Source: Sphingomonadales bacterium (GTDB lineage: Bacteria; Bacteroidota; Bacteroidia; NS11-12g; UBA955). Taken from it: a DNA stretch of 64,000 bases. Location of the stretch: positions 5,042 through 69,041 of the forward strand of contig VHBA01000006.1 of NCBI GenBank assembly GCA_016872175.1, in the 5' to 3' direction. The translations under genes and the position numbers were made by a program. The notes below the pieces were generated by a model. That model had not been told where the DNA came from. It saw only the letters and a program-made list of their open reading frames with translations, and did not search any database. Below, one piece after another: positions 18,001 to 32,833 of this stretch (its first letter is position 1; every line of letters starts with the position of its first letter).

Positions 18001-21000
18001 TTGCACCACCCAAATTCACCCTGCAGACTGCTTTACCCATTGTTTATGGAACCAAAGATACCGTAGAATGGGAGGTGAGATATACAAACCCATCAACTAC
18101 CTTTACCGCCAACACCATTTGGCTTTCACCTGCCAAAAACAGCAATATCAGGGTAGTGCAGATTCGGGACTGGGTAAAAGATACCATCATTAAACCCGTA
18201 AACGATATTTACCGGGCAGGCTCACTGCCTGCGGGTCAAACGCGCCGTTTCAAAGTCAGGGCGGTTTTTAGTAATTGTACCCCTGACAGCCTGCTGTTAT
18301 TTGGTGGATGGAACTGCCAGACATATCCCACCGATTTTACCTCCAATACCTGTGTGCCTGTTGCAACCAAACTATACCTGGAGCCACTAAATACGCGATT
18401 AAATCTTACCCTCACGGATTCGCTCAGCAAATTCGATCTCTGTTATCCCAACCGTATGACGCTGGTGATAGACAATGTACAGTCTGTTACTGCGCATCAG
18501 CTAAAGGTACGGATTGCCCTGCCCATCGGTATGGATATTATTTCTGGCAACAATTTTATCCGTTACCCCCACAAATCAGCTGCAGTGAAACTGAGCAATC
18601 CCACACTGCTCGCAGGCACAACCTGGGAATGGGACCTCGCCAAACTCATGTCCGGTTTGTCTGCAGGATTTCCCGGAACCATTGATACCAATAAAAACAA
18701 GATTATCATAACCTTCAGGGTAAAAACCAACTGCGATTATGCATCAGGCAGTTTTATTTCAGCCAGGGCCTCATCCAATATCCGCTGTGGAGATCCCGTG
18801 CCTGCCAATACTTCCTACACCAATCCGCTGGAAATAAAAGGCGTGGTCAAAACCCTGTACACGCAGGTAAAAAACTGGACAGATTCCATTTTGCCCTGCG
18901 AAAAACCGGCCATTTCCAAAATCAGGGTGATTGTTCTGGGTCCGCGGGAGATGGATTCCAACGACAGGGTTGAAGTGATTTTGCCATCAGGCATTTCCAG
19001 GGATACATCCTATTTCAAGGCGGTCAGAAATGCGCCCAATAAAGATTCAGTTAAGGTCAGCAATTTCAATGGAGCGACACTTCTTTCCTGGCCTGCCACT
19101 CGCAAACTCCAACCGGGAGATTCTCTGGAATTTGATATCCGTTTGTTGTCGAATGGTGCCCAGCTCAACTGTGGTACGGCCGATATTCTGTCTCGAACGG
19201 TTGTCAGCCAAAATGTTGAATGTGTTCCCGAAAATAGAATTTGCAATATAAAAATCGTGACAGGTTCCGTCCTTACTGCCCCGGCAGTAGATAAAGGTAA
19301 CCTCCAGTTTACGGGCATCAGCATCAGTGCCGCCCGCCTGCTGAATTCCGATACCGAACAGGTAGTTGTGAAATTCGGAATTAAAAACCTTGGTAAATAT
19401 ACCAGCAGTGCCACACCCATTGTAGTACGCTATCATTACGACAATGACGGCAATGGTAAATGGAGTACCGGCGATCTTCGGCTGGGAGCGGACACCATAC
19501 GCAAAACGCTGAAAAAAGATTCTCTTTTGACGGTGTCTCGGACATTGAAGATAAGGGCCGGACAAAGCTGTGCCATACTGGCTGTGATAGACAGCGCTGC
19601 CTGTGCCTGTAAATTCGGGCAGACAATCTTCCCTGCGGCGTATTACCCCAATGCGGGCCGTGATACTTCGTTCTGTTCGGGGTCGCCCTGGCGGCTGGGA
19701 ACCCTTACCTCCAAGTGGTATAAATACAGCTGGGATAGAATCGATCTGCTGGATAGTTTTCAAATCGGGAATCCAGTCTATAAGCCCATAAATACGGGAA
19801 ATAACCCCGATACATTGTTCTTTATGCTAACCACAAACCGCGGGGTTTGCAGCTCAAAGGATACAGTGCGGCTTATTGTACAGTCGTTGCCCACGGTGGT
19901 TTTCAGCAATAAATCCATAAATATCTGTGAGGGCGCCTCTTCTGCATTGTCCAATTCGGTAAATGGGGGATTTTCGCCCTACAAATGCCGGTGGACGCCG
20001 GCAACAGGGTTGTCGGATACAACCGCTCCCATTCCTGTGGCGAAACCCAAAACAGACACACGCTATACCCTTCGGATTACCGATAAACTGGGCTGTGTGC
20101 AATCGGATACCATGCGCATTTCCGTCAATCCCAAGCCGGTGGCAAGCTTCTTCTGGCCGGTTACCTGCGACGGAAGGCCTGTGGTGGTTTCAGACAGCAG
20201 CCGTATTCTGCGCGATACCATTGTAAGCCGCCTCTGGAGTGCAACCGGTTTTGATACTTTCGGATTAAAGGTGTTGAACTTTAACATGAATGGCCTGTCC
20301 CGCCTGCCACTGACACTGATGGTATATTCCAACAAAGGCTGCGGCGATACCCTTACAAGAACTTTGGATGTAAAGGCCATACCCAAAGTGGCTTTCAGTA
20401 TCCCTTACGTTTGCAATGGTGATTCTAGTCGTTTTGCCAACCAAACCACCCTCGACAGCGGAGTTATTACTGCCTGGGGCTGGGACTTTGGAGACGGTAA
20501 AACATCCACCGTGAAAAATCCTGTGCACCGCTACGTCGATACAGGAATACGAACCGTAATGCTGGCAGCCCAAAGCAACAATGGGTGTGCCGATACCATC
20601 CGCAAAACGTCAAGGGTATTCCCGGTTCCATCGGCAGCATTCACCTTTATCAACGTCTGCTCCGGCGATTCCTTCGCTTTTGCCGATGCATCCAAACTCT
20701 TTGGCGATACCCTGAAAACGCGCAACTGGAATCTGGGTACCATGGGAACAGCCACGGACAGCAGTTTCAAACGCATGGTCAAAACGTGGGGAAAATATCC
20801 CGTTTCGTTGCGTATTGAAACCATTCATGGCTGTAAAAATGCAGCCTCAGACACCGCCAGGGTTTATCCTTTACCAATACCTTCATTCACCGCCGATTCT
20901 GTTTGCGAAGGGCTAACCACTAAATTCATCAATACTGCCAAAATTCCACAAGGAAGCATTGCTACATACAATTGGCAATTTGGCGACGGCAATATATCCG

Positions 21001-22373
21001 CCGCAGTTGCACCTTCAAATGCTTATGCCAAACAGGGGTTGTATACAGTTAGGCTGAAAGCCACCTCCGACAAGGGTTGTGTAGATAGCGTAAAAAATAC
21101 AATAACAGTGTTTGCGCCTGCATGGCCGGTCTTTGCAGTTAATAATTTGTGTTTGCGACAAAGCCTTGTCAGCACGGCTACCCACCGCGGTGCCGGAATA
21201 CCCGTCATTTACCGCTGGTATCTTGGCAATGGCGACAGTCTCAGCGGCTCCGGATTGAACTACACCTACCCTGCACATGGAACATACAACGTTCGCTTGC
21301 GCATGGTAACTGACAAGGGCTGCATGCGTGATTCAGTTGCCGTGGTAACCGTGCATCCGCTTCCTCAGGTTGCATTTACGGCAGTGAATCCCTGTAAGGA
21401 TGATAGTTTGGTGTTCACTGCCCAATCAGGTATCGCACTGGGCAGTGCTGGCCTGCCACAATGGTCATTCAGCAGCGGACAAACCGCCACAGGAAGCCCC
21501 ATACGACGCATTTTTAGTGTACCCGGTAGTTTTACCGCCAAGCTGAAACACACATCCGATAAAGGTTGTATGGATTCTCTTTCATTGCCTTATACCGTGG
21601 GAGAAAAGGTTATTGTTAAATATACCGTAAATGATGTTTGTTTGGAAGAAACAACACAGTTTACAGATTCTTCATACAGTGTTCAGCCAATAAACATCTG
21701 GAACTGGGACTTTGGCAACGGTGTTAAATCAACCAAAAACAATCCGGGCTTTACCTACAAAATGCCCAGGAAATACAATACCCGTCTGCAGATTAGTACC
21801 CTGCCGGGTTGTAATTATTCGGTGGGCAAAACAGCAACCGTTCACCCAAAACCACAGGCATTTTTCACCCATAATCCGGATCAGGGAACGATTGTAAATC
21901 CAAACATCACTTTCACCGATAAAAGTGTGGGTGCAGATGATGTGCGGTATGTATTCAGCACGGGATATAGCACCGGCAACCGCAACTTTACTCATTCTCT
22001 GCCTGACAGTGGCATATTCTCGATAACACAATATGTTTCCACCCAGTTTGGATGTAAAGACTCATTTACCAAACAGATAGTTATTAATTACATGTACACC
22101 CAGCATGTGCCTACCGCTTTCACACCCGATGGCAATAACCTGAATGAAGGATTTTCGCCCTTGGGTATGGGAATTAACTGGTATAGTATGAAAATTTACA
22201 CGCGCTGGGGCGAGAAAATATATGAAACCCAGGACAGCAAACCCTGGAATGGCACATACAATGGCGAGCCGGTTCCCGAAGGGGTTTACGTAGTTCTGAT
22301 AGAAATAAAAGATTACAAGCGTAAAAACCACTATTACAAGGGCACGGTGCAGATTCTCCGCAAAACGGAGTAA
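15090..22373 (+). CDS. giant (2427 aa) cell-surface adhesin-like protein with about 8 PKD-like domains and a T9SS type-B C-terminal sorting domain
   Basis: Signal peptide MHKYASRILVFLVAFCFAEALSAQG. Repeated W-x-F/L-G-D/N-G ... GC-x-D modules from about nt 20140 to 22080 (e.g. WDFGDGKTSTVKNPVHRY, WQFGDGNISAAVAPSNAY). C-terminus VPTAFTPDGNNLNEGF...IYTRWGEKIYE...WNGTYNGEPVPEGVYVVLIEI matches the gliding-motility-associated CTD. Confidence 0.85.
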   Translation: MHKYASRILVFLVAFCFAEALSAQGNKLSIVGSAPKNMTICGLTDTARVTVLNISSSAVNGNLVTLSMPTGMRYVPGSATGTGVAESNITNLNRPIFSAPNLAIGKNFTFRYRVRANCDMIPVVSGPSNPSISIRVDYTGNFDAALSLPFTSAVPSLGYNIITNQTFIGNVGDKFVRRVTLTNFGKGPLLNLRLVRVKGKDLTLRSEGGFSHRYNLDSVITTITKTDIQKVGNKDTFLDQNESIAFSDTFTITGCISLITSYDLTWGCDGKFCQVVKNTATTAISTASPNLQVVISSSVQPVYNNTTASKFTMRIANIGQMTAMASDALIFQTLSPGVGFYNYVMSRIDSTSIRLQKGWNGFTNRAYTDTFLSNAITPCWSTGSMGGFRLRLGNMQPKDTVYITWDVYRCVNTNCNTSTYELGWGYRASYRNQCNNTLSTGNQWTVGYTYSGGVVAPYTPADLQQNEVKPFRYSFSGMGNLPLHSSAAIRIDLVLPNTLTHSLTKTDFYIDNPNLTAIWYPDSLKMVKDTLRAFMGRSMVFWLTNSELTVRLKGVCSTGSNNSNLPLTLIYAYNPNTSAHPNLWIKPICNTVNVKVHCSNICNRGGMLFRNFELYRSNYGRPDNDNNGLPDVSGSIDKLKIRTERIMFGDTLTTIFRGRPRNASGITSWRYGYAESVVTNGDYITVVDAKLEVHKGITKVSGNCGAVKWRKVSSGTNATFYFDFTVDSIWRGGCLTSIYRYTQNDSVTLTVRYKVDKNRGQTAQPMNFSNRFYLASAANPTLSQSYQCDTFSGNCILNGYIFHNWGSDYITYASCNEVAVAQNFYFGIGNCCNYGGGNIFPFEYRSWGRPIAMKLTMSSGLKLGRSSFIQYRTAGTNNTVTERKDTIPFRKGSTYWFDFTKYYKDSGGTVNFSDDGFHGTFWYTVYPTCDLIPYVAYPIQYDYVYEKRGALGKGYDTVRSQSMRTPDFFTFAPPKFTLQTALPIVYGTKDTVEWEVRYTNPSTTFTANTIWLSPAKNSNIRVVQIRDWVKDTIIKPVNDIYRAGSLPAGQTRRFKVRAVFSNCTPDSLLLFGGWNCQTYPTDFTSNTCVPVATKLYLEPLNTRLNLTLTDSLSKFDLCYPNRMTLVIDNVQSVTAHQLKVRIALPIGMDIISGNNFIRYPHKSAAVKLSNPTLLAGTTWEWDLAKLMSGLSAGFPGTIDTNKNKIIITFRVKTNCDYASGSFISARASSNIRCGDPVPANTSYTNPLEIKGVVKTLYTQVKNWTDSILPCEKPAISKIRVIVLGPREMDSNDRVEVILPSGISRDTSYFKAVRNAPNKDSVKVSNFNGATLLSWPATRKLQPGDSLEFDIRLLSNGAQLNCGTADILSRTVVSQNVECVPENRICNIKIVTGSVLTAPAVDKGNLQFTGISISAARLLNSDTEQVVVKFGIKNLGKYTSSATPIVVRYHYDNDGNGKWSTGDLRLGADTIRKTLKKDSLLTVSRTLKIRAGQSCAILAVIDSAACACKFGQTIFPAAYYPNAGRDTSFCSGSPWRLGTLTSKWYKYSWDRIDLLDSFQIGNPVYKPINTGNNPDTLFFMLTTNRGVCSSKDTVRLIVQSLPTVVFSNKSINICEGASSALSNSVNGGFSPYKCRWTPATGLSDTTAPIPVAKPKTDTRYTLRITDKLGCVQSDTMRISVNPKPVASFFWPVTCDGRPVVVSDSSRILRDTIVSRLWSATGFDTFGLKVLNFNMNGLSRLPLTLMVYSNKGCGDTLTRTLDVKAIPKVAFSIPYVCNGDSSRFANQTTLDSGVITAWGWDFGDGKTSTVKNPVHRYVDTGIRTVMLAAQSNNGCADTIRKTSRVFPVPSAAFTFINVCSGDSFAFADASKLFGDTLKTRNWNLGTMGTATDSSFKRMVKTWGKYPVSLRIETIHGCKNAASDTARVYPLPIPSFTADSVCEGLTTKFINTAKIPQGSIATYNWQFGDGNISAAVAPSNAYAKQGLYTVRLKATSDKGCVDSVKNTITVFAPAWPVFAVNNLCLRQSLVSTATHRGAGIPVIYRWYLGNGDSLSGSGLNYTYPAHGTYNVRLRMVTDKGCMRDSVAVVTVHPLPQVAFTAVNPCKDDSLVFTAQSGIALGSAGLPQWSFSSGQTATGSPIRRIFSVPGSFTAKLKHTSDKGCMDSLSLPYTVGEKVIVKYTVNDVCLEETTQFTDSSYSVQPINIWNWDFGNGVKSTKNNPGFTYKMPRKYNTRLQISTLPGCNYSVGKTATVHPKPQAFFTHNPDQGTIVNPNITFTDKSVGADDVRYVFSTGYSTGNRNFTHSLPDSGIFSITQYVSTQFGCKDSFTKQIVINYMYTQHVPTAFTPDGNNLNEGFSPLGMGINWYSMKIYTRWGEKIYETQDSKPWNGTYNGEPVPEGVYVVLIEIKDYKRKNHYYKGTVQILRKTE

Positions 22374-24040: not shown

Positions 24041-25087
24041 ATGAAATTAAGTCAATTTAAATTCGAACTACCTGAAGAGCTGATAGCCCAGGAACCCCTT
24101 AAAACCCGTCACGAAAGCCGCCTGCTGGTGGTAAATCGCAAGGGAAAAACCATTGAGCACAAAATGTTTCATGATGTGCTGGATCTTTTTGACGAAGATG
24201 ACACGTTTGTAGTTAACAATACCAAGGTTTTCACCGCCCGTATGTACGGCCAAAAAGAGAAAACCGGTGCCCAGATTGAAGTGTTTTTGCTACGCGAACT
24301 CAACCACAATTTCCGTTTGTGGGACGTGCTGGTAGATCCGGCCCGTAAGATTAGAGTAGGCAACAAACTGTATTTTGGTGATGATGACCTGGTGGCTGAA
24401 GTGGTTGATAACACTACATCGCGCGGCCGCACCATTCGTTTCTTGTTTGACGGAGATGACGAGGCATTCAATCGCATAATCAAAAAATTGGGTGAAACCC
24501 CCATCCCCAAATACATTACACGTCCTGTAAAGCCCGAAGATGAACTTTGGTACCAGAGCCAGTTTGCCAAGCACGTTGGGGCTGTGGCTGCGCCTGCTGC
24601 GCAATTGCACCTTACCCGTGAGTTGCTTATGCGTCTGGACATCAAGGGAATCAGGTTTGCCGAAATTACTCTGCACCTGGGTTTGGGCGCATTCCGCGAA
24701 GTTGAGGTAGAAGACCTCACCAAGCATAAGATGGATAGCGAGTTTTACAGCATAGACCAAACGGCTTGTGATATTGTGAACGAGTCCATTGAAAAACGCA
24801 AGCGTGTGGTTGCTGTGGGTGGCTCGGTGATGCGCGCCATGGAAAGCAGCGTTAGCTCAACCAAAACCCTGAATCCCGGCGCGGGCTGGTCGGATAAGTT
24901 CATTTTTCCGCCCCACGATTTCAGTGTGGCCAATGCGTTCATTACCAACCTGCATCAGCCCGAGAGCCCCTTGTATATGATGGCCTGTGCCTACACCAGC
25001 CATGAATTCATGACCCATGTGTACCAGGAAGCCATGAAGGAAAAGTACCGTTTTCTTTGCTATGGCGACGCCATGCTGATTATGTAA
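24041..25087 (+). CDS. queA: S-adenosylmethionine:tRNA ribosyltransferase-isomerase
   Basis: [28 protein letters not shown]-terminus and overall QueA pattern. 348 aa. Confidence 0.93.
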
Positions 25088-25237
25088 GTCATGCTTCGGC
25101 AGGCTCAGCATGCCAGCCCTTGTTGCCCGGCAATACTCTAATCGCCCTGCATATACGCAGTTAAAAATCTACTGCATAGCTGTAAAGCGAATCGAAATTA
25201 ACAATATCTTCATTTTTTCATTAACAATTAAATCCTC

Positions 25238-25269
25238 CTTGACTTTCGTCAAAAATTGTTGTATATTTG
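25238..25269 (+). promoter_or_regulatory. putative ssrA promoter (cTTG-N20-TATATTTG)
   Basis: TATATTTG at 25262-25269 fits TAnnTTTG. It ends 12 nt before the mature tmRNA 5' end (25282). Confidence 0.4.
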
Positions 25270-25281
25270 AGATAGTTCTTT

Positions 25282-25651
25282 GGGGCTGACCGGACTTGAC
25301 AGGATGAATGGGTGCGGTGTAAGCATGTGGTGCTTTGGATGTTGGCACTTGAATCTCAATGTTCAAAACCATAAGAGGCGAAAATAACTACGCCCTCGCT
25401 GCCTAATTCGTTGTAATTAGCATCGCGTGTTGCTCCCGTCGCTTTTGTCTGTGTAACTGACGAAACGGAGCAATCGATGAACACGGATATGGCCACTCAC
25501 ACCGGCCAGGTGAGCCATTAACACGCCGGCTAAGGATGGAGTAGGGTTATTTCTGTACCCGCCTCATCCCGACAACAAACAGAAATAAACATGTAGAAAG
25601 CGCCAGCAGTCGCGTCTCTGGACGAGGGTTCGATTCCCTCCAGCTCCACCA
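25282..25651 (+). ncRNA. ssrA: tmRNA (transfer-messenger RNA)
   Basis: 5' GGGGCTGA acceptor half. Tag reading frame GGC GAA AAT AAC TAC GCC CTC GCT GCC TAA at 25377-25406 (GENNYALAA). 3' tRNA-like end GGACGAGGGTTCGATTCCCTCCAGCTCCACCA. Confidence 0.9.
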
Positions 25652-25717
25652 CCCAACAAACAAAACCCGCGTAAACATTGAGTTTAGCGGGTTCTTTGTT
25701 TTGTTGTTGTCGGTTTT
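25634..25717. repeat. left direct repeat (attL-like): last 18 nt of tmRNA plus terminator
   Basis: 25634-25679 is identical to 31624-31669 (46 bp). Over 84 bp I count 79 matches. A 12-bp tandem duplication GTTGTCGGTTTT x2 at 25706-25729 is present only on this side. Confidence 0.85.
25664..25705 (+). terminator. rho-independent terminator of ssrA
   Basis: AACCCGCGTAAAC / GTTTAGCGGGTT stem (one bulged G), loop ATTGA, followed by a T-rich run. Confidence 0.7.
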
Positions 25718-26122
25718 GTTGTCGGTTTTCTGCGGAAATCAATAACAAAACTTGTATTTATGAGATAGTTCTATTTATTTGCACAGCATGAAAACGACTC
25801 TCACTATTTTCTTATGTTGCATTTTTTATACCTTAAATGGTCAAACTGCACCCGTTTCCAAAACTTCCGATTCAACTTATTCGCACCTCGAAAAATCGGC
25901 TGACTTGAAAATCGCATCGAAGATTACTGCATTTTTAGGAGCTGGATTAACTTAATTAAATATGAAATCAGTCAAAACTAATCCACAGATATCATATCTG
26001 CCTTTCAGCACTTATTTATGTGGAGCGGTTGCAGTGGTGTTTGATATAGCCTCACTGGTAGAGTTCAAAAAGGCCGGAAAGTCAGAATCTAATAAGAGAA
26101 AAAAACAATAAAAACATGGGGG

Positions 26123-26488
26123 TTACCCCAAATCCATTGTCAGCAAAATGTGTTTTGCCTCAATACTTACCTCCTGTGTGACACGTGGCAACCCGATTGC
26201 ACGATTCAACAAACTTTCTATTGCGTATAAACTACCTTTTTTTGCTCCATTTAACAATGCGCGGGCAATGGTGAGTTCAAGTATTGTGGCCGTGCCTGTA
26301 TTAACAATGTCGCTCAATTCGGTTTCGTCCAGTGTCAGCATTACCAGTATTATGTCATTCACTTGCGATTGTGTGTAACCTTGTTTTTTTAATGAGGTGA
26401 TAAACTTTTGAGGCCTCCCGGCGGGATTAGGTGAAACCATACCGCGTTGCCACGGGGTTAAATGGTCAGTTTTGGGATTTATATTCAT
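26123..26488 (-). CDS. phage/mobile-element-related small protein (terminase-small-subunit-like or DUF5681-like)
   Basis: SPNPAGRPQKF motif followed by a helical region (ILELTIARALLNGAKKGSLYAIESLLNRAIG), resembling phage small-terminase/HTH proteins from memory. Start set at MNINPK. Weak call. Confidence 0.35.
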   Translation of the reverse strand: MNINPKTDHLTPWQRGMVSPNPAGRPQKFITSLKKQGYTQSQVNDIILVMLTLDETELSDIVNTGTATILELTIARALLNGAKKGSLYAIESLLNRAIGLPRVTQEVSIEAKHILLTMDLG

Positions 26489-26505
26489 TTGTTTAAGTTT
26501 GTGGT

Positions 26506-27183
26506 ATGAAAAGAATAATTCTGATATTATTGTTGGTAAAGTCACAAATTGTTGTTTCTCAAACATCTCATATTTCACAAGATTCTATTAACATCTATTT
26601 CCAAAATATTGTCAATGAGTATAGAATGAATAATCACCTAAGTGGTTTATCTATCGATACAACATTAAGTTCTTTTACAAAGAATTGGTCGGAGTATATG
26701 TTCAAACAAAATTATTGTGGACATGGTGTTGGTGATGAATCATTTCAAAATCGAGCAATAAATTTTGCACCAACATGAGAACTTCACTGTGTTGAAAATG
26801 CGGCAGGTCCATGGGATTTTACCAAAGATTTACCTTATGATGTTGAAGACCCAAGTTACTTGTATTATACAAAAATTGGTTTGGATGGTTTTGATTATCA
26901 ATATAAATTGACCAATACAGAAATACAAACTTTAATAAATGTTGAAAATAAAATAGGTGAAGGTGTAAACATTAACCAAAATATCGCTGTGTTCATTTTT
27001 TATTTATGGAAAAACTCACCATCACACAATGAAGGGTTGTTGGATTATCACACAACTAAATTCTATGTTTCCATAACTTATGTGGGTACAAAAATAACCG
27101 CGTCATATTTGGCAACAAGTTCACCAAAACCTATTACTAAAAAAAGACATGGATGGTTAAGTAAATTCAGCCCTGTTAAATGA
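26506..27183 (+). pseudogene. CAP/SCP (PR-1-like) domain secreted protein interrupted by one in-frame TGA
   Basis: ORFs 26506-26778 and 26860-27183 are in the same frame (offset 354 nt). The only stop between them is TGA at 26776-26778. The N-part has IVNEYRMNNHLSGLSID...; the C-part has WKNSPSHNEGLLDY..., the CAP-domain hallmark. Confidence 0.6.
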
Positions 27184-27899
27184 GTGTTTTTGTTGATAAT
27201 GAGTTTGTATATGGTGTTACGACAAATGTTGTAGCAAGGTATACATTCTGTGAATTTGCTTTTCTGCAATCAAGTTTACATGAATACTGGGCTTGGAAAT
27301 ATGGTTCAACAATGCGATTTGCAATTCGATATACAAATGGAGATTGTATTGATACCTTTCCAATTTTAGAAAATCTAACGTCACAACAAGAGCAGCAATT
27401 AGAATCCATTGGCGAAGCCTACCACGAACACCGCAGGCAACTCATGTTGGGTATGCAATTAGGGCTTACGAAAACCTATAATTTGTTTCACAGCAATGCC
27501 ATCACGGCACAAGCTGTAAATGAGAAAGACAATCAAGTAGCCGCCCGGCGAAAGCACTTAGAAAAGACGCCCAATACCATTTCATTCAACGAAGCCATTC
27601 AAGGTATCCTCAAACTCCGTGAGCTGCATGTGCAAATGGATGAGGCGGTGTTAGATGCTTATGGATGGAATGATATAGCCCTCCGTCATGATTTCTACGA
27701 AGTAGATTATTTGCCGGAGAATGATCGTATTCGTTTCACCATCCATTCGGATGCCAGAAAAGAGGTGTTGAAGCGGTTGTTGGATTTGAATCAGAAAATA
27801 CATGAGGAGGAAATGGCCGCAGGTTTATGGAATAAAAAACCTTCTGCTAAACCCAAAAAATCTAAAGATACCAATCCCGACCAAACCCAACTTTTATAA
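27180..27899 (+). pseudogene. C-terminal fragment of an MmeI/Eco57I-like type IIG/IIL restriction-modification methyltransferase
   Basis: FLQSSLHEYWAWKYGSTMRFAIRYTNGDCIDTFPI, LTKTYNLFH and LHVQMDEAVLDAYGW resemble the TRD/C-terminal region of about 900-1200 aa MmeI-family enzymes. No methyltransferase or helicase-like part lies upstream. The ATG overlaps the CAP gene stop (ATGA). Confidence 0.5.
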
Positions 27900-27908
27900 A
27901 GGAATACA

Positions 27909-29807
27909 ATGCAAGCTTATAAACTTTCTTTTGCCGATTTATTGAAAATAGAAGGCAATATAGAGCACTATCATATACCTAAATACCAGCGCGAATATGT
28001 TTGGGGTAAAACCGAATGGGAAACGCTAATTAATGATATCAATGAAAATGACATTGATTATTTTATCGGTTCTGTGATCGTTGTTGCTTATTCTGATGCT
28101 CGCCCGGGAGCTGAGAAGATATATCAAGTGGTGGATGGGCAGCAGCGGCTAACCACATTAACCTTATTGCTTGCTGCAATTTACAAGAAGTTAAAGGCAA
28201 TTCAAGCAACTTTAGATAAGGAGGATGAAGATGTATTCTCCGATTTAGGGGTAAAACTAAATAGTATTGAACGGAAGCTGGTGCATCGTAAAAAGGCTGC
28301 TTACAATGATGAGCCAGGTGGGTTTTTAGATAAACAGCAGGTTTGTTTTCTTAGGGTTCAGCCGTCATCTCAAAACAGCAACCTGGCCGATTATAAATAT
28401 ATTTTTAAGGAGTGTGGTTTGCTTAAAGATGCAGATGTTCCCAAGAATTTTGGAAACCGCAGATTTGCACGAGCTTTTTATTATTTCCTACAGGAAATTC
28501 CGGATTCACTTGAAGATCTTGAATTATTACTGGACAAAATAAACCGCCTTGTGTTTATTCATATTGCTGTTGGCACCCAGGCCGATGCATTTGTTTTGTT
28601 TGAAACACTCAATAATAGAGGGGTGGATTTATCGCCCATTGATATCATAAAAAATAGTTTGTTGGCAGAAATGGAAAAGCAACAGCAAGTAAATATTGAT
28701 GATTCTTTTCAGCGATGGCAAGAGCTGCTTACATTGATTCCTGATTTTGACAATCAGCTTCGTTTTTTAAGGCAGTATTACAATGCATTTAAGGTTTATC
28801 CTGAAATCAAGCACGATAAGGTTACTAAAGCTACCAAAACAACAGTACTAATGGTATATGAAAGGTTAATTAAAAAGAATCCTGATAAGATTTTCAATGA
28901 CCTAATTAGCAAAGCTAAATCATATTCTATTTTAACCGGAGTTTCAAGCACAGAAAGCAATCAATTAAATCAGAAAATAGAGGAGTTAAATAAGGTTGGT
29001 GCTGCCGCATCTTACACTTTATTGATATATCTTCTGCAAAATAAAGAACATCTAGTAGATGACGGGGTGCTGCCCAAATTGGTAGATTTTTTAATTAAGT
29101 ATTATCTGCGTAGAAATGTGACGGACACGCCTAATACCAGGGATCTTGATTCCATCAACATTGACGTTGTAGAACATTGTCATCATTCAATTTTAAGTGG
29201 CAACAAGCTTACCGCTGATTTTATAATAGCATTGCATCTGAATAATGCCAAAGCCAAGCCGGCTGGAATTGATGTATTCAGAAAGTGGTTGAGTGATGCA
29301 ATATACGAGAATAATGTGGGTATGACCCGATATCTGCTTTGGAAAATAGACAGTATATATCACACCAGAGAATATGCCCCTGATTTATGGAAGCGCAATG
29401 AAAATAACAATGCCTTCATTTGGACTATAGAACATGTTTTTCCTGAGGGTAAGAATATCCCTGAAACTTGGATAAGTATGGTGGCTAATGGAGATAAAAA
29501 GTTAGCGGAAAAGATCCAAGAAGAATGCGTACATAAATTGGGTAATTTAACGCTGTCGGCCTACAACTCAAATCTGTCTAACCGTTCCTTTGAAGATAAA
29601 CGTAATCTTACCACACGCAGGGTTGGTGCCGAGGATGTTAAGATTGGCTATCTGAATGGCTTAGGTTTGAATAAGTTTAATTACCAAGTAAACAATGAGT
29701 CTATATCCCTGTCAGAAACCAAAATATGGAATCAAAGCCATATAGAAGCGCGAACCAATCAAATGGTAGAAAAGATTATAGAGCTTTTTAAATTTGACGG
29801 GGAATAG
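27909..29807 (+). CDS. GmrSD-family type IV restriction-like enzyme (DUF262 + DUF1524)
   Basis: N-terminal IPKYQREYVWGK...FIGSVIVV...VVDGQQRLTTL (DUF262/ParB-like NTPase). C-terminal IEHVFPEG...HKLGNLTLSAYNSNLSNRSF (DUF1524 His-Me finger). 632 aa, apparently intact. Confidence 0.8.
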   Translation: MQAYKLSFADLLKIEGNIEHYHIPKYQREYVWGKTEWETLINDINENDIDYFIGSVIVVAYSDARPGAEKIYQVVDGQQRLTTLTLLLAAIYKKLKAIQATLDKEDEDVFSDLGVKLNSIERKLVHRKKAAYNDEPGGFLDKQQVCFLRVQPSSQNSNLADYKYIFKECGLLKDADVPKNFGNRRFARAFYYFLQEIPDSLEDLELLLDKINRLVFIHIAVGTQADAFVLFETLNNRGVDLSPIDIIKNSLLAEMEKQQQVNIDDSFQRWQELLTLIPDFDNQLRFLRQYYNAFKVYPEIKHDKVTKATKTTVLMVYERLIKKNPDKIFNDLISKAKSYSILTGVSSTESNQLNQKIEELNKVGAAASYTLLIYLLQNKEHLVDDGVLPKLVDFLIKYYLRRNVTDTPNTRDLDSINIDVVEHCHHSILSGNKLTADFIIALHLNNAKAKPAGIDVFRKWLSDAIYENNVGMTRYLLWKIDSIYHTREYAPDLWKRNENNNAFIWTIEHVFPEGKNIPETWISMVANGDKKLAEKIQEECVHKLGNLTLSAYNSNLSNRSFEDKRNLTTRRVGAEDVKIGYLNGLGLNKFNYQVNNESISLSETKIWNQSHIEARTNQMVEKIIELFKFDGE

Positions 29808-29852
29808 TAAGAGTCAAAACAAAATATAATTTTTAATTTGAGAGTCTGAATT

Positions 29853-30254
29853 ATGAAAATAAAGAGTGCAAAATCATTTCGCCAATGGTATAAAAGTTTA
29901 ATTCCAGCAAGGAAAAAGCATCCTGAAGATTGGAATGAAAACTTTATGGGAACTCTGCACGAAGATGAATCTGGATTTCTTCAAATGTATCACGGAGGTA
30001 AGGAAGATATCTACGGGTTTCTTAGAAAAGAAGTTGAAATGGCAGAAGATGGACAAGCGATTTATGAATTTGTCCAAAATGCAGCAGACAGTGATTCTAC
30101 AAAGTTTTATATGTTTTATGACCAAAATTATTTGATTGTTATAAATAACGGAAGTGTCTTTACTAAAGAGGGTGTAAAGTCAATTCTTGATATCGGACAA
30201 AGTTTTGGAAAACAAAATTTGATCAAACTTTTTATTAATTTTAAATGTTATTGA
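29853..30254 (+). pseudogene. N-terminal fragment of a GHKL (sacsin/HATPase_c_3-like) ATPase
   Basis: IYEFVQNAADSDSTKFYMFYD...LIVINNGSVFTKEGVKSILDIGQS matches Bergerat-fold motifs I and II (ELxQNAxDA; NG..F; IG.S.K). It terminates about 15 aa later, whereas family members are much longer. Confidence 0.5.
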
Positions 30255-30305
30255 GATGGTATTGACCAATTTGATACATTATTAACTTAACTAAATAACA
30301 TAAAA

Positions 30306-30479
30306 ATGAATAAATTATCTATTCTCGAAATCGGAATTGTCGTTCTATCTGTGATTTGTATTTTTGTATCTGAGTACCTCTACTTATTTCAGGGTGACCA
30401 AACGAAAGCGATTTTTATTGGTCTTTGGCCGCCAACGATGCTTGGACTTTTGAATTACATCAATTCAAAAAGAAAATAA
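30306..30479 (+). CDS. small two-TM membrane protein (57 aa), hypothetical
   Basis: My translation: MNKLSILEIGIVVLSVICIFVSEYLYLFQGDQTKAIFIGLWPPTMLGLLNYINSKRK. Below the ORF-track size cutoff. Confidence 0.3.
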   Translation: MNKLSILEIGIVVLSVICIFVSEYLYLFQGDQTKAIFIGLWPPTMLGLLNYINSKRK

Positions 30480-30480
30480 A

Positions 30481-30624
30481 ATGGAAAATTTGGATATTAT
30501 CATATTGACTATTGTTATTGTTGTTCTTTTCGCGGGATTTATATTTATACCATTGTTATATGCGCACAAGATTGAAAAAAAACACATAACGAAAAACCAA
30601 TCAAATCGTAGTGATTCAAGTTGA
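30481..30624 (+). CDS. small single-TM protein (47 aa), hypothetical
   Basis: My translation: MENLDIIILTIVIVVLFAGFIFIPLLYAHKIEKKHITKNQSNRSDSS. Starts 1 nt after the previous stop. Confidence 0.3.
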   Translation: MENLDIIILTIVIVVLFAGFIFIPLLYAHKIEKKHITKNQSNRSDSS

Positions 30625-30631
30625 TGAATTA

Positions 30632-30880
30632 TAAGTTGATGGCAAACGGATTGGCACATCAAAAGAATATTATAAGGACGGTAAGCTACTTTTTGAAGGA
30701 TTTTACAAATACGACAAAAGAGAGGGCGAACATAAATGGTATCATCCTAATGGTAGGTTACGATTAATTGCAAATTATTATAATGGACGTAAACACGGTA
30801 AATTTTTCTATTATGATGTGAATGGAAACTTAGAATCTACTAAAATGTATGTTTACGGGAGGGAAAAATTGGAAAAGTAG
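30632..30880 (+). pseudogene. MORN-variant repeat (YwqK-like) protein remnant without a start codon
   Basis: The open frame reads VDGKRIGTSKEYYKDGKLLFEGFYKYDKREGEHKWYHPNGRLRLIANYYNGRKHGKFFYYDVNGNLESTKMYVYGREKLEK (three YY-x-NG-type repeats). It is preceded by an in-frame TAA, with no ATG/GTG/TTG before the repeats. Confidence 0.5.
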
Positions 30881-30883
30881 ACC

Positions 30884-31528
30884 ATGATGCACATTTCTAC
30901 TAATAAATATACTGCAATATTATGCGGTCTCATGATTAGCAGTATTGGCTGCAATAACCGACGTGCCGCATCGGAAAGAGCAAGAGGCGATTCCTATTCG
31001 TCTTCAGAGAGTAGCCATTTTGAGGATGAAAGCAAAGAAGGTGGTTTTGAAGATGGTACTTGGTGCGCAAGCGTTACATATTACAACCCCAACACAGGAA
31101 CAAGCGGAACTTACACATTGAACGTGGAAGTACAGGACAATGAACTAATAAAAATCTATTGGGGCAATGGTGGGTGGTTGGACGAAGACCATTTTTACGC
31201 CCAAGATTTGGATGAGGATGGTTATTGCTCCTTTACGAGCGATAAGGGCAACAGTTACACGGTTACATTATCACAAGAAGGCGGCTGCGGCTCCACAGAC
31301 GAATACAGACTGCGGGATGAGGTAGAGGAAGACAGAGCAGATATTACCTGCCCGAAATGCGGGGATAGCAAGTACAGCGTAGATGACTACTGCTCATCAT
31401 GCGAAAGGAAGATGAGGGATGAAGAGGAAGAAAGAAACAACACATGTTCAGAGTGTGGAGCTCATGAATACGGGGTTCGTGGAGGCAAGTGTTCAAGCTG
31501 CAAGGATGATGAAGATGGATACAGATAG
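30884..31528 (+). CDS. acidic lipoprotein with two C-terminal zinc-ribbon-like CxxC pairs, hypothetical
   Basis: Lipobox-like LMISSIGC. Conserved-looking core DGTWCASVTYYNPNTGTSGTYTLNVEVQDNELIKIYWGNGGWLDEDHF. C-terminal CPKCG..CSSC and CSECG..CSSC. Confidence 0.55.
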   Translation: MMHISTNKYTAILCGLMISSIGCNNRRAASERARGDSYSSSESSHFEDESKEGGFEDGTWCASVTYYNPNTGTSGTYTLNVEVQDNELIKIYWGNGGWLDEDHFYAQDLDEDGYCSFTSDKGNSYTVTLSQEGGCGSTDEYRLRDEVEEDRADITCPKCGDSKYSVDDYCSSCERKMRDEEEERNNTCSECGAHEYGVRGGKCSSCKDDEDGYR

Positions 31529-31623
31529 CCAAAGTGCTTCACTTCTGTTTCACTTTAATTTTGTGGAAAACTTTTAGGGCTTGTAAGTGATAGTATATCA
31601 ATTACTTGTTCAGAAATGTTCAC

Positions 31624-31707
31624 TTCCCTCCAGCTCCACCACCCAACAAACAAAACCCGCGTAAACATTCAGTTTAGCGGGTTTTTTGTTTTTATGTGGT
31701 CGGTTTT
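31624..31707. repeat. right direct repeat (attR-like): orphan copy of the tmRNA 3' end plus terminator
   Basis: TTCCCTCCAGCTCCACCA plus the terminator hairpin, with no tmRNA body upstream. 79/84 identical to 25634-25717. Confidence 0.85.
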
Positions 31708-31809
31708 AATTGGTTTCAGAAAATTATTTAGTACCCAGATTAGTGAATTGAGGAAAATTTTGAGGGGAAGTCAAGGGTGGGAGGTGTAGTGACAGGTTGC
31801 GACCTGCCA

Positions 31810-32766
31810 CTAAACCCCCATTTTCCGCAGATTCTCCAGCATATCTGCTGTCATCCGGTCGAGGTCGTAGTCGGGTTTCCAGCTCCAGTCTTCGCGGGCA
31901 CGCGTATCGTCAATCACGGCAGGCCATGAATCGGCGATGGCCTGACGGTAATCGGGTTCGTATGTGCTGCTGAAGGTGGGAATATGCTTTTGGATGGCGG
32001 CTGTAATTTCTTCGGGGCCAAAACTCATGCCGGCCAGGTTGTAGCTGGTGCGGATTTTTACCTTTTCTGCCGGCACATGCATAATGTCCAGCGTGGCTTT
32101 CAGGGCATCAGGCATATAGAGCATCGGCAATACCGTGCCGGGTTTTAAAAAGCATTGGTGCTTGCCCGTGGTGAGGGCATCATGGTAAATGGCTACTGCG
32201 TAGTCGGTGGTGCCGCCACCGGGTGCCGATTTATAGCCAATGAGGCCGGGATAACGCAAACTGCGGGTATCCACACCCCAGCGGTTGAAGTAATACTGTG
32301 CATACAATTCACCGGCCAGCTTGCTGATGCCATAAACCGTTGTTGGATCCATAGCCCCATATTGAGGTGTATTGATGCGCGGTGTGTTGGGTCCGAATGC
32401 CGCAATGCTGCTGGGCCAGTACACTTTTTTCACAATGCCTGTATCGCGGGCGGCATCCAGCAGGTGAAATAGCCCATCCATGTTGAGTTTCCAGGCAAAT
32501 TCAGGCATTTTTTCGGCTGTGGCACTCAGTAAAGCTGCCAGGTGATAAACCTGCGTAGGTTTGTATTTCTCCAGAATCTCCAACAGCTTGGGTTTATCCA
32601 AAATATCAAGCACTTCAAAGGGTCCGGTCTGAAAAACAACATTGTCGCTCTTTTTCACATCGCTGGCAACCACCTGATTTTCGCCATAAATTCCCCTCAG
32701 GGCTTCTACAAGTTCGGTACCAAGCTGTCCGCAGGCACCTATCACCAAAACCGTTTCTTTCTGCAT
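31810..32766 (-). CDS. NAD-dependent epimerase/dehydratase family protein, probably SDR-type L-threonine 3-dehydrogenase
   Basis: VLVIGACGQLGTEL Rossmann motif, YGISKLAGE catalytic YxxxK, and PGGGTTDYAV as in UDP-galactose-4-epimerase-like TDHs. Start trimmed to MQKETV. Confidence 0.7.
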   Translation of the reverse strand: MQKETVLVIGACGQLGTELVEALRGIYGENQVVASDVKKSDNVVFQTGPFEVLDILDKPKLLEILEKYKPTQVYHLAALLSATAEKMPEFAWKLNMDGLFHLLDAARDTGIVKKVYWPSSIAAFGPNTPRINTPQYGAMDPTTVYGISKLAGELYAQYYFNRWGVDTRSLRYPGLIGYKSAPGGGTTDYAVAIYHDALTTGKHQCFLKPGTVLPMLYMPDALKATLDIMHVPAEKVKIRTSYNLAGMSFGPEEITAAIQKHIPTFSSTYEPDYRQAIADSWPAVIDDTRAREDWSWKPDYDLDRMTADMLENLRKMGV

Positions 32767-32833
32767 TTCAATGCAAAGGTTCACAAATGGCAGTAATTTA
32801 CAAAATTCATTTATCTACGTACCTTTGTTAGCT

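What the first reader, a model, noticed from the sequence alone, without database searches (positions are those of the whole stretch)
25634..31707. About 6 kb integrase-less island inserted at the ssrA (tmRNA) 3' end, bracketed by a 46-bp perfect / 84-bp imperfect direct repeat
The last 18 nt of tmRNA (TTCCCTCCAGCTCCACCA) plus the downstream terminator hairpin occur twice, exactly 5990 bp apart. 25634-25679 is identical to 31624-31669, and I count 79/84 matches over the extended repeat. The second copy has no tmRNA body. This is the attL/attR signature of site-specific integration into ssrA. The enclosed DNA is AT-richer than the flanks. It has no recognisable integrase, excisionase or transposase. 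It contains one intact defence gene (GmrSD) embedded among at least four truncated or interrupted genes and several tiny orphan ORFs. A 12-bp tandem duplication (GTTGTCGGTTTT x2, 25706-25729) is present only at the left junction. The island looks like an immobilised, eroding defence/immunity island. The uncharacterised survivors (small TM pair, Zn-ribbon lipoprotein) are candidates for unknown defence or immunity functions by association.
Basis: partly seen in the sequence, partly recalled or inferred. Interest (0 to 1): 0.7.

Follow-up and report, generated by a model that had tools for sequence, protein, structure and literature searches.

The report
Decayed satellite-like island at the tmRNA gene
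The 6 kb after the tmRNA gene is the worn-down remnant of small integrase-carrying mobile elements that insert into this gene; only one anti-phage gene (GmrSD) and a few small genes are still whole, which makes it a clear but ordinary example of a known kind of genomic island.

Summary
The tmRNA gene lies at 25282-25651, and its last 18 nt plus a terminator hairpin recur 5990 bp downstream (46 nt perfect, 79/84). The enclosed DNA has 36.5% GC against 46-47% in the flanks, and no integrase is present. The integration reading is supported by relatives. The only backbone gene left, a 121-aa DUF5681 protein (26123-26488, minus strand), has homologues in small elements that still carry a tyrosine integrase. 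One is a roughly 4-kb circular contig (L226). Another (L225) has an attP with the same tmRNA 3' end. Their attP layout matches both window copies: T-loop, gene 3' end, own terminator, then two tandem 12-mers exactly 79 nt from the T-loop. So the "12-bp duplication" is a family feature, and the right-hand copy also carries an element arm. This implies serial or tandem integration followed by deletions. The middle 3 kb is an internal scrap of a helicase / type IIG methylase / GmrSD / Tiamat cluster that is seen intact elsewhere (GmrSD 96% identical). At least five genes are broken. No empty site could be tested, because the locus sits at a synteny breakpoint. Verdict: a new member of a known kind, of modest interest.

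The parts
25282..25651 (+). ssrA (tmRNA gene), complete. A Bacteroidota-type promoter (TTG ... TATATTTG) lies just upstream at 25239-25269.
   Evidence: ARAGORN; Rfam RF00023, 123 bits, full length; promoter read from the sequence.
25627..25651 (+). T-loop (GGTTCGA) plus the last 18 nt of tmRNA. This is the identity block and presumed crossover region of the left junction (attL).
   Evidence: Alignment with the attP of L225 and L226; the repeat starts here.
25652..25705 (+). Terminator hairpin that now ends ssrA. It is element-supplied (P' arm).
   Evidence: Fold -22.6 kcal/mol, z = -4.0. The same element occupies the same place in the L225 and L226 attP.
25706..25729 (+). Two tandem 12-mers, GTTGTCGGTTTT. 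This is a family-specific pair of sites, inferred to be arm-type integrase binding sites, 79 nt from the T-loop start.
   Evidence: The integrases of relatives have an Arm-DNA-bind_5 domain.
25779..26111 (+). Small secreted or membrane ORF, read as 58 aa + 49 aa in one frame with one in-frame stop. Probably a pseudogene. It occupies the cargo slot between the P' arm and DUF5681.
   Evidence: Translation. No family hit. In L225 this slot holds other cargo.
26123..26488 (-). DUF5681 protein, 121 aa, intact. It is the only surviving backbone gene of the integrative element and is small-terminase-like by gene position in phages.
   Evidence: Pfam PF18932. Homologues of 58-97% identity, 120-135 aa and mostly 121 aa, plus one partial match. 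Contexts with an integrase. Distant homologues lie directly upstream of TerL.
26506..27183 (+). CAP/YkwD-like secreted protein gene, broken by one in-frame stop at 26776-26778. The L002 population has a further 22-bp deletion at 27009-27030.
   Evidence: Pfam CAP; translation; polymorphism.
27180..27899 (+). Last 239 codons of an MmeI/Eco57I-type type IIG / DrmMI methyltransferase gene of about 1290 codons (5'-truncated).
   Evidence: PADLOC DrmMI 3.6e-54, profile positions 1146-1255 of 1347. The intact 1287-aa gene sits in the same position next to a 96%-identical GmrSD. L098 is 80% identical.
27909..29807 (+). GmrSD-family type IV restriction enzyme (DUF262 + DUF1524), intact, 632 aa.
   Evidence: Pfam GmrSD_N 8e-38 and GmrSD_C 4e-15; PADLOC; full-length homologues; dN/dS 0.03 against L098, with dS saturated.
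29853..30254 (+). First ~117 codons of a Tiamat TmtA (sacsin-like ATPase) gene of about 1550-1590 codons (3'-truncated).
   Evidence: PADLOC TmtA 3.7e-46, profile positions 1-113 of 1552; NCBIfam P_loop_sacsin; intact 1593-aa neighbour in the related contig.
30306..30479 (+). 57-aa two-helix membrane ORF with no family. Status unknown.
30481..30877 (+). Probably one broken gene: a TM anchor (30481-30624), then a frameshift and a stop, then a MORN_2 repeat region (30635-30877) with no start codon of its own.
   Evidence: Pfam MORN_2 6e-9 on the six-frame translation; coordinates and frames. The fusion of the two pieces is inferred.
30884..31528 (+). Lipoprotein, 214 aa, with C-terminal CxxC pairs. 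It looks intact, has GC 0.453, and belongs to a widespread uncharacterised family.
   Evidence: 505 representative clusters at E<=1e-3, conserved core at residues ~40-135; no Pfam family; GC.
31617..31641 (+). Second copy of the core: a degenerate T-loop (TGTTCAC) plus the 18-nt tmRNA 3' end, with no tmRNA body upstream.
31642..31719 (+). Second terminator hairpin (31642-31695), then one consensus 12-mer GTGGTCGGTTTT (31696-31707) and a degenerate one (7/12, 31708-31719). This is a second element P' arm.
   Evidence: Fold -23.8 kcal/mol, z = -5.1. The 12-mer lies 79 nt from the T-loop, as in L225 and L226.
31720..31809 (.). About 90 nt of unassigned spacer up to the stop codon of the epimerase gene (31810-32784, minus). 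Homology with related species starts only at 31812.

Best explanation
The region is a fossil of serial, site-specific integration into ssrA by a family of small tyrosine-integrase elements.

In intact relatives the element is a circle of about 4 kb or more. It encodes an integrase with an arm-binding domain, an HTH_17 excisionase-like protein, two proteins of unknown function and a DUF5681 protein. Its attP carries, in order: a pair of 12-mers, about 105 nt of spacer, the T-loop and 3' end of the target RNA gene, a terminator hairpin, and a second pair of 12-mers.

Recombination in the T-loop replaces the gene's own 3' end and terminator with the element's copy, so ssrA stays functional. In the window the left junction still has this exact layout, followed by a small cargo ORF and the inward-facing DUF5681 gene.

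The rest of the backbone is gone: the two proteins of unknown function, the excisionase, the integrase and the P-arm sites. In its place lies a patchwork:
- a nonsense-mutated CAP gene;
- a 3-kb internal scrap of a helicase / type IIG methylase / GmrSD / Tiamat defence cluster, in which only GmrSD is whole;
- a broken MORN gene;
- a lipoprotein gene.

The right-hand repeat is a second core plus a second element P' arm, left by another copy of the family. The locus therefore took at least two integrations and then several deletions. The element can no longer move by itself.

What the locus still does is inferred, not shown. It terminates ssrA with an element-derived hairpin, and it probably provides GmrSD-type restriction of modified phage DNA.
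For: The repeat and the tmRNA gene are as described.

DUF5681 homologues sit in integrase-bearing elements. L226 reads integrase - HTH_17 - an ORF of 127 aa as called on the contig (139 aa from its first start codon) - 402 aa - DUF5681. It has a 127-nt terminal overlap, which means a circular or tandem contig of about 4.05 kb, and a second contig shows the permuted gene order. L218 and L219 carry an integrase, HTH_17 and AAA_25.

L225 (DUF5681 72% identical) has the integrase N-terminus (MAKFNLNL..., like L226), then a 12-mer pair, the tmRNA T-loop and 3' end, a terminator and a second 12-mer pair, contiguous and without a tmRNA body. That is an attP. It matches window 25627-25729 at 85% identity.

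The spacing from T-loop to first 12-mer is 79 nt in window copy 1, window copy 2, L225 and L226. The P-arm pair lies 129 nt upstream of the T-loop in both L225 and L226.

The 12-mer (one mismatch or fewer) occurs only three times in the 64-kb window, all at these sites. Copy 2 has the family consensus GTGGTC, while both attL copies share GTTGTC, so copy 2 was not copied from attL.

The fragments are real truncations. The PADLOC profile coordinates show it. An intact gene order with the same intergenic spacing (9 and 45 nt) lies next to a 96%-identical GmrSD, and the same trio is present in L098 and L099.

Pseudogenes. Low GC. Integration at ssrA, tandem ssrA islands and T-loop insertion are documented elsewhere (PMC3146451).
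Against: No empty site, and no ssrA locus of a related species, could be examined. The claim that the copy-2 arm is not native DNA therefore rests only on its match to the element family, and one of its two 12-mers is only 7/12.

The P arm expected left of copy 2 shows no recognisable similarity to L225 or L226.

The genes CAP to lipoprotein lie where the backbone should be, not in the family's usual cargo slot. A history by deletions alone needs three element copies, or else an unobserved insertion or rearrangement.

The role of the 12-mers as integrase arm sites is inferred from position, conservation and the arm-binding domain. It has not been shown.

GmrSD activity and expression are untested.
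Confidence: 0.75

Rival explanations
1. A single island was inserted once into a native attB. The left copy is attL, the right copy is attR on native downstream DNA, and the 12-bp duplication is a local slip at the left junction.
For: Two copies, with a perfect 46-nt core and mismatches on both sides. Low GC lies between them. This is the simplest history.
Against: The right copy carries the family's 12-mer at the family's exact spacing, in the consensus form rather than the attL variant. The tandem 12-mer pair is present in the attP of L225 and L226, so it is not a slip.
Confidence: 0.15
2. The island is still mobilisable in trans, as a cis-mobilisable element. It lacks an integrase but keeps usable attL and attR sites, and it could be excised by the integrase of a co-resident element of the same family.
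For: The 46-nt core is identical in both copies, and the P' sites at attL are intact. Active relatives with a matching core exist in other metagenome samples (L225). The concept is described for ssrA islands (PMC3146451).
Against: The P-arm 12-mer pair expected 129 nt upstream of copy 2 is absent. The T-loop at copy 2 is mutated (TGTTCAC against GGTTCGA), and that is where crossover is expected. No integrase is present in 64 kb. All sampled strains carry the island.
Confidence: 0.07
3. This was not site-specific integration. The second copy arose by local duplication or rearrangement of the ssrA 3' region at a synteny breakpoint, and the DNA in between was acquired by other routes.
For: ssrA and the island sit exactly between two synteny blocks that are not adjacent in related species. 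A 21-nt stretch just upstream of ssrA recurs at 25752-25772 (family D5).
Against: The repeat starts in the T-loop. It has the same layout as the attP of integrase-bearing relatives, and it is followed by the family's DUF5681 gene in the expected orientation.
Confidence: 0.03

Closest known systems
Tyrosine-integrase genomic islands and prophage remnants at tRNA/tmRNA genes (Williams' 'traffic at the tmRNA gene' and the Islander database, from my own knowledge; Dehalococcoides tandem ssrA islands, PMC3146451)
   Same: An intact ssrA at one end and a direct repeat of its 3' end at the other. Insertion is in the T-loop region. GC is low, the content is strain- or species-specific, and there is tandem accretion and decay into immobile remnants.
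   Different: The Dehalococcoides islands use a serine recombinase and a 20-bp repeat. Here the relatives use a tyrosine integrase with an arm-binding domain, and the repeat extends 66 nt past the gene, because the element brings its own terminator and a pair of 12-mers.
Small phage satellites: PICI, PICMI and marine VEIMEs (PMC9618062; PMC10085698)
   Same: The intact relatives are 4-12 kb. They encode an integrase, an excisionase/AlpA-like HTH, replication-type proteins (AAA_25 and a primase-like protein in L218 and L223) and small-terminase-type genes (Terminase_4 in L222; DUF5681 in the TerS position in phages). L225 carries an HNH endonuclease, as some VEIMEs do.
   Different: There is no evidence of helper phage, induction or packaging. 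The close family is absent from IMG/VR and from cultured phages. The window copy has lost everything except DUF5681, so it cannot act as a satellite.
NBU-type mobilisable elements of Bacteroides, which integrate into the 3' ends of tRNA-Leu and tRNA-Ser genes (from my own knowledge, not tested here)
   Same: A Bacteroidota host, a tyrosine integrase, and a target at the 3' end of an RNA gene. L226 appears to target a tRNA whose acceptor end resembles tRNA-Ser.
   Different: No relaxase or oriT-type genes were seen in L225 or L226. The elements are much smaller, and DUF5681 is a phage-type protein.
Defence islands and defence cargo of mobile elements: GmrSD type IV restriction, DISARM/type IIG methylases, Tiamat
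   Same: GmrSD is complete. Its neighbours are recognisable pieces of a type IIG/DrmMI methylase and of TmtA. The trio is conserved in order and spacing in other genomes.
   Different: Only GmrSD is whole. The methylase keeps 239 of about 1290 residues and TmtA about 117 of about 1590, so neither system can be present.

Membership tests
Integrative island at a tRNA/tmRNA gene (tyrosine-integrase type) | Complete target gene at one end and a direct repeat of its 3' end at the other | tested here: met
Integrative island at a tRNA/tmRNA gene (tyrosine-integrase type) | The repeat starts at a canonical sublocation (T-loop or anticodon loop) of the RNA gene | tested here: met
   Identity starts at the T-loop (GGTTCGA | TTCCC...). 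The same boundary is seen in the L225 and L226 attP.
Integrative island at a tRNA/tmRNA gene (tyrosine-integrase type) | Integrase gene inside the island | tested here: not met
   No Phage_integrase hit in the ORFs, in six frames of 25652-27200, or in the plus frames of 30200-31623. No tblastn match to related integrases in 64 kb.
Integrative island at a tRNA/tmRNA gene (tyrosine-integrase type) | Related elements exist with an integrase and an attP carrying the same core | tested here: met
   L225: integrase N-terminus, then P arm, tmRNA 3' end, terminator and 12-mers; 85% identity to window 25627-25729.
Integrative island at a tRNA/tmRNA gene (tyrosine-integrase type) | Empty site in related genomes | tested here: inconclusive
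   All same-species contigs carry the island. In related species the flanks are not adjacent and no tmRNA gene lies nearby.
DUF5681 small integrative elements (L225/L226 type; defined here) | P' arm: target 3' end, terminator hairpin, then a tandem 12-mer pair 79 nt from the T-loop, followed by an inward-facing DUF5681 gene | tested here: met
DUF5681 small integrative elements (L225/L226 type; defined here) | Backbone of integrase (Arm-DNA-bind_5), HTH_17 and two unknown proteins, plus a P-arm 12-mer pair 129 nt upstream of the core | tested here: not met
   Absent from the window. The window is therefore a remnant, not a member in working order.
Phage satellite (PICI / VEIME-like) | Gene set of integrase, regulator/excisionase, replication and packaging-redirection (TerS-like) | tested here: inconclusive
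   Relatives have an integrase and HTH_17. They also have AAA_25/primase-like genes (L218, L223) or unknown proteins (L226), plus DUF5681 and in L222 Terminase_4. DUF5681 is TerS-like only by its position next to TerL in L227 and L231. The window has DUF5681 only.
Phage satellite (PICI / VEIME-like) | Helper-phage-dependent excision, replication and packaging | not testable with these tools
   This needs virome or induction data. The close family is not in IMG/VR.
GmrSD type IV restriction | Single polypeptide with an N-terminal DUF262 (ParB-like NTPase) domain and a C-terminal DUF1524 (HNH-type nuclease) domain | tested here: met
   Pfam GmrSD_N 8.1e-38 and GmrSD_C 3.6e-15, full length 632 aa. 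Activity was not tested.
DISARM / type IIG restriction-modification | Full-length methyltransferase, with helicase partners for DISARM | tested here: not met
   Only profile positions ~1146-1347 are present. The helicases are absent. The intact version is seen only in another contig.
Tiamat (TmtA) | Full-length TmtA of about 1500 aa | tested here: not met
   Only profile positions 1-113 of 1552 are present.

The most novel reading that the evidence does not exclude
The DUF5681 elements may be an undescribed family of minimalist phage satellites (down to about 4 kb) of freshwater Bacteroidota. They would target the T-loop of ssrA or tRNA genes, bring a replacement 3' end plus their own terminator, use paired 12-mers as integrase arm sites, and carry a cargo slot in which defence genes are exchanged. 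The window would then be a fossil of that traffic, in which selection kept only GmrSD.
Probability: 0.3. Interest if true: 0.5.

Novelty: new member of a known kind. Interest (0 to 1): 0.3.

Why it matters
In itself this is a textbook-type decayed island at ssrA and does not change any concept. It has three modest uses.

1. It shows how a defence gene can outlive both the mobile element that brought it and the larger defence cluster it came from.
2. It gives a precise attP signature for finding a family of very small integrative elements in Bacteroidota metagenomes: T-loop, gene end, terminator, then a 12-mer pair at 79 nt. That family may be phage satellites.
3. It is a caution for annotation. 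The small "orphan" ORFs in such islands are mostly pieces of broken genes, not new defence candidates.

Tried and rejected
**Empty-site search by synteny.** QueA relatives (genome contigs) and epimerase relatives showed that the two flanks are not adjacent in other species. No tmRNA gene lies in the contig sequence available on the relevant side of either flank. The test therefore failed for lack of a comparable locus.

**Metagenome scan with a 32-nt core.** It returned only one contig (L087), from the same species, which also carries the island.

**Viral scans.**
- The 38-nt core had no match.
- The 12-mer pair had no match.
- The 18-nt tmRNA end alone gave 115 contigs, but these are tRNA genes and permuted tmRNA genes of other taxa, so they say nothing about this site.
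- The DUF5681 and lipoprotein queries found no close viral relatives.
- tblastn against cultured phages found nothing.

**Six-frame Pfam search by DNA reference.** The minus frames of 30200-31623 and the alternative frames of 27200-30200 were not scanned against Pfam. tblastn with family proteins covered the whole window instead.

**Divergence of L087 against the window.** The island part has 2 differences in 1394 nt and the right flank 125 in 5120 nt. The flank is a mosaic with equally clean stretches, so I draw no conclusion about a recent sweep.

**dN/dS.** dS is saturated, so the low ratios say nothing about the recent branch.

**Structure of DUF5681.** The AlphaFold model was poor (pLDDT 63), and Foldseek returned only other DUF5681 phage proteins. 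The PDB profile search was empty.

**The 402-aa protein of L226.** It has no Pfam, PHROG, NCBIfam or PDB match and is not homologous to the primase-like protein of L223.

**Assembly chimera.** Considered and rejected, because four independent assemblies agree.

Full report
**1. The observation**

ARAGORN and Rfam both find a complete tmRNA gene at 25282-25651 on the plus strand, with tag peptide GENNYALAA. The repeat finder gives one long direct repeat, 25628-25717 versus 31618-31707: 90 nt, 92% identity, 5990 bp apart.

25634-25679 equals 31624-31669 (46 nt), and 79 of 84 positions match over the extended repeat. A 38-nt core occurs twice in the window, and no match appeared in any of 100 shuffles. 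There is no tmRNA body at the second copy.

GC is 0.365 inside (25652-31617), 0.459 to the left and 0.469 to the right.

The same arrangement is present in contigs from other samples and assemblers (L001-L003), and the right-hand part is present in L087. It is therefore not an assembly artefact. The organism is an uncultured freshwater member of the Bacteroidota. Its closest database relatives are MAGs labelled Flavobacteriaceae, Bacteroidia or Bacteroidota.

**2. Gene content**

The island holds few whole genes.

Whole:
- GmrSD, 27909-29807, 632 aa, with both Pfam domains.
- A 121-aa DUF5681 protein, 26123-26488 on the minus strand.
- A 57-aa membrane ORF, 30306-30479.
- A 214-aa lipoprotein with CxxC pairs, 30884-31528.

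Broken:
- 25779-26111 is two ORFs in one frame, split by a single stop.
- 26506-27183 is a CAP/YkwD-like gene with one in-frame stop at 26776-26778. One population (L002) has a further 22-bp deletion in it.
- 27180-27899 is only the last 239 codons of a type IIG / DrmMI methyltransferase gene (PADLOC profile positions 1146-1255 of 1347, E = 3.6e-54).
- 29853-30254 is only the first ~117 codons of a Tiamat TmtA gene (profile positions 1-113 of 1552, E = 3.7e-46).
- 30635-30877 is a MORN_2 repeat region without a start codon. With the 47-aa TM ORF just upstream (30481-30624) it most likely formed one gene, now broken by a frameshift and a stop (this is an inference).

No integrase, excisionase or transposase domain appears in the called ORFs, in all six frames of 25652-27200, or in the three plus frames of 30200-31623. 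The minus frames of 30200-31623 and the alternative frames of 27200-30200 were not scanned.

**3. Where the middle came from**

A GmrSD that is 96% identical lies on a 22.6-kb metagenome contig in this gene order:
- a DEAD/ResIII helicase (1731 aa);
- an SNF2 helicase (960 aa);
- a 491-aa protein;
- an Eco57I/MmeI-type methyltransferase (1287 aa);
- GmrSD (632 aa);
- a HATPase/sacsin-type protein (1593 aa).

Its intergenic gaps of 9 and 45 nt are the same as at 27899/27909 and 29807/29853 in the window. Two further contigs, with GmrSD 87% identical, show the same three-gene order.

Window 27180-30254 is therefore an internal piece of a larger defence cluster. Both neighbours of GmrSD were cut off, and GmrSD alone was left whole.

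**4. What inserted at ssrA**

The DUF5681 protein has 18 near-full-length homologues at 58-97% identity, of 120-135 aa and mostly 121 aa, plus one partial match. Almost all are on short contigs. Their contexts are informative.

L226 is a contig with a 127-nt terminal overlap, which means a circle or tandem array of about 4.05 kb. It encodes:
- a tyrosine integrase with Arm-DNA-bind_5, SAM-like and catalytic domains;
- an HTH_17 excisionase-like protein;
- an ORF of 127 aa as called on the contig (139 aa from its first start codon) and a 402-aa protein, both without family;
- DUF5681.

A second contig shows the same genes in permuted order.

L218 and L219 combine DUF5681 with a cargo region, HTH_17, an integrase and an AAA_25 protein. 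L222 and L223 combine it with AAA_25, a primase-like protein and, in L222, a Terminase_4 small terminase, next to host genes.

In two viral contigs, distant DUF5681 homologues lie directly upstream of the large terminase gene, overlapping it. That is the usual place of a small terminase. A structure model was too poor to add anything.

**5. The attachment site**

Downstream of DUF5681 in L226, read in the window's orientation, lie in order:
- a pair of 12-mers (GTGGTCGGTTTT x2);
- about 105 nt of spacer;
- a tRNA-like T-loop and 3' end;
- a terminator hairpin;
- a second pair of the same 12-mers.

L225 (DUF5681 72% identical) has the same layout, but with the tmRNA T-loop and 3' end. It matches window 25627-25729 at 85% over 103 nt. 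The start of the integrase gene (MAKFNLNL...) lies just beyond the first 12-mer pair, and there is no tmRNA body. This is an attP specific for ssrA in an element that still has its integrase.

The distance from the start of the T-loop to the first downstream 12-mer is 79 nt in four places:
- L225 (258 to 337);
- L226 (266 to 345);
- the window's left copy (25627 to 25706);
- the window's right copy (31617 to 31696).

The upstream pair lies 129 nt before the T-loop in both L225 and L226. All four hairpins fold well. The 12-mer, allowing one mismatch, occurs only three times in the 64-kb window, all at these sites.

**6.

The core idea is right: site-specific integration into ssrA, with the integrase now lost and the island decaying. 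The predicted "variants that still carry an integrase" exist. Three points change.

First, the 12-bp tandem repeat is a conserved part of the element's arm. I infer that it is an arm-type integrase binding site, because the integrase has an arm-binding domain. It is not a junction-specific slip.

Second, the right-hand copy carries a consensus 12-mer and a degenerate second one (7/12) at the family's spacing. Its 12-mer has the family consensus GTGGTC, while both left copies share GTTGTC, so it was not copied from the left junction. The DNA to the right of the second core is therefore itself an element arm. The locus has seen at least two integrations, and foreign DNA probably extends to about 31809, where homology with related species begins.

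Third, the element backbone has left no trace anywhere in the window. This covers the two proteins of unknown function, the excisionase, the integrase and the P-arm 12-mers. The junction lies within 17 nt of the DUF5681 start codon.

The CAP-to-lipoprotein block sits where the backbone should be, not in the family's cargo slot between the P' arm and DUF5681. Its arrival needs either a third element copy plus deletions, or an unobserved insertion. I cannot resolve that history.

**7. What could not be tested**

In related species the left block (up to the queA stop at 25087) and the right block (up to the epimerase stop at 31812) are conserved but not adjacent. No tmRNA gene lies in the 5.3-10 kb of contig available on the relevant side of either block. 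In relatives queA is followed by tRNA-Leu genes, and the epimerase gene by a miaB-like gene or by other genes.

ssrA and the island thus sit at a species-specific synteny breakpoint, and no empty site could be examined.

All sampled strains of the species carry the island. L087 differs from the window by 2 of 1394 nt in the island and by 125 of 5120 nt in the flank. The flank is a patchwork that also has clean stretches, so this says little.

**8. Comparison with what is known**

Integration of islands at ssrA is well documented, including direct repeats of the gene's 3' end, T-loop insertion, tandem accretion and fixed remnants. The Dehalococcoides ssrA islands are one example (PMC3146451). 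Williams' work on tmRNA gene traffic is another, which I cite from my own knowledge.

Small integrative elements with an integrase, an AlpA/excisionase-type regulator, replication genes, a small terminase and sometimes an HNH endonuclease are known as phage satellites. These include the marine VEIMEs (PMC9618062).

The intact relatives found here resemble that kind, but nothing shows helper dependence. The close family is absent from IMG/VR and from cultured phages. I therefore file the window as a new member of a known kind: a decayed integrative island at ssrA. The satellite reading stays a hypothesis about its ancestors.

**9. The uncharacterised survivors**

The lipoprotein belongs to a family with 505 representative clusters at E <= 1e-3. 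The conserved core is residues ~40-135, and its GC is host-like. One of the two small TM ORFs is probably part of the broken MORN gene.

Neither is a good candidate for a new defence function on present evidence.

**10. Verdict**

- Observation: confirmed.
- Interpretation: partly supported and refined.
- Novelty: new member of a known kind.
- Interest: about 0.3. This rests mainly on the clean attP signature of a possibly undescribed family of very small elements, and on the example of a defence gene that outlived both its carrier and its cluster.

Noticed in passing
window 25259-25279 and 25752-25772: The 21 nt immediately upstream of the tmRNA 5' end include the TAnnTTTG promoter motif. They recur (19/21) about 100 nt downstream of the gene, just after the 12-mer pair. 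About 0.1 such matches are expected by chance in 8 kb by my own rough estimate. This may be a shared promoter element or chance.
   Followed up: partly
window 25088-31811; loci L007-L012, L088-L097: ssrA plus the island lie exactly between two synteny blocks that are not adjacent in related species. There, queA is followed by a tRNA-Leu(cag)/tRNA-Leu(gag) pair, and the epimerase gene by a miaB-like gene or by variable genes.
   Followed up: partly
L226 1-4175, and a 3857-bp contig of JGI 3300059473: A roughly 4.05-kb circular or tandem element (127-nt terminal overlap) with only five genes: integrase, HTH_17, two unknown proteins and DUF5681. Its attP carries a tRNA-like 3' end whose acceptor end resembles tRNA-Ser. 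It is unusually small for an integrative element.
   Followed up: partly
contig of JGI 3300059473 (no DNA held); L098, L099: A type IIG methylase, GmrSD and TmtA (Tiamat) occur as a trio with fixed order in three lineages. The short intergenic gaps are the same in the window and the contig. In one case the trio follows two large helicases. GmrSD may be a regular companion of this cluster.
   Followed up: partly
L104, L106, L108 and many other IMG/VR loci: Dozens of viral contigs carry permuted (two-piece) tmRNA genes, or tRNA genes, that end in the same 18-mer TTCCCTCCAGCTCCACCA. They are unrelated to this locus.
   Followed up: no
window 27909-29807 and 30884-31528: The identical GmrSD protein, and the 198-aa member of the lipoprotein's 90%-identity cluster, are deposited in NCBI (MBM3919983.1, MBM3919986.1) under a MAG named 'Sphingomonadales bacterium'. 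The tmRNA tag and all relatives point to Bacteroidota, so the label looks wrong.
   Followed up: no
L088 12138-13259 against L090: In the sister species, the region just past the epimerase gene is also variable. A 373-aa gene is present in L088 and absent in L090, although the two are 99% identical elsewhere.
   Followed up: no
window 15090-22373: A 2427-aa secreted protein with PKD repeats and a CHU_C (type IX secretion) domain. It diverges much faster between related species than its neighbours do.
   Followed up: no
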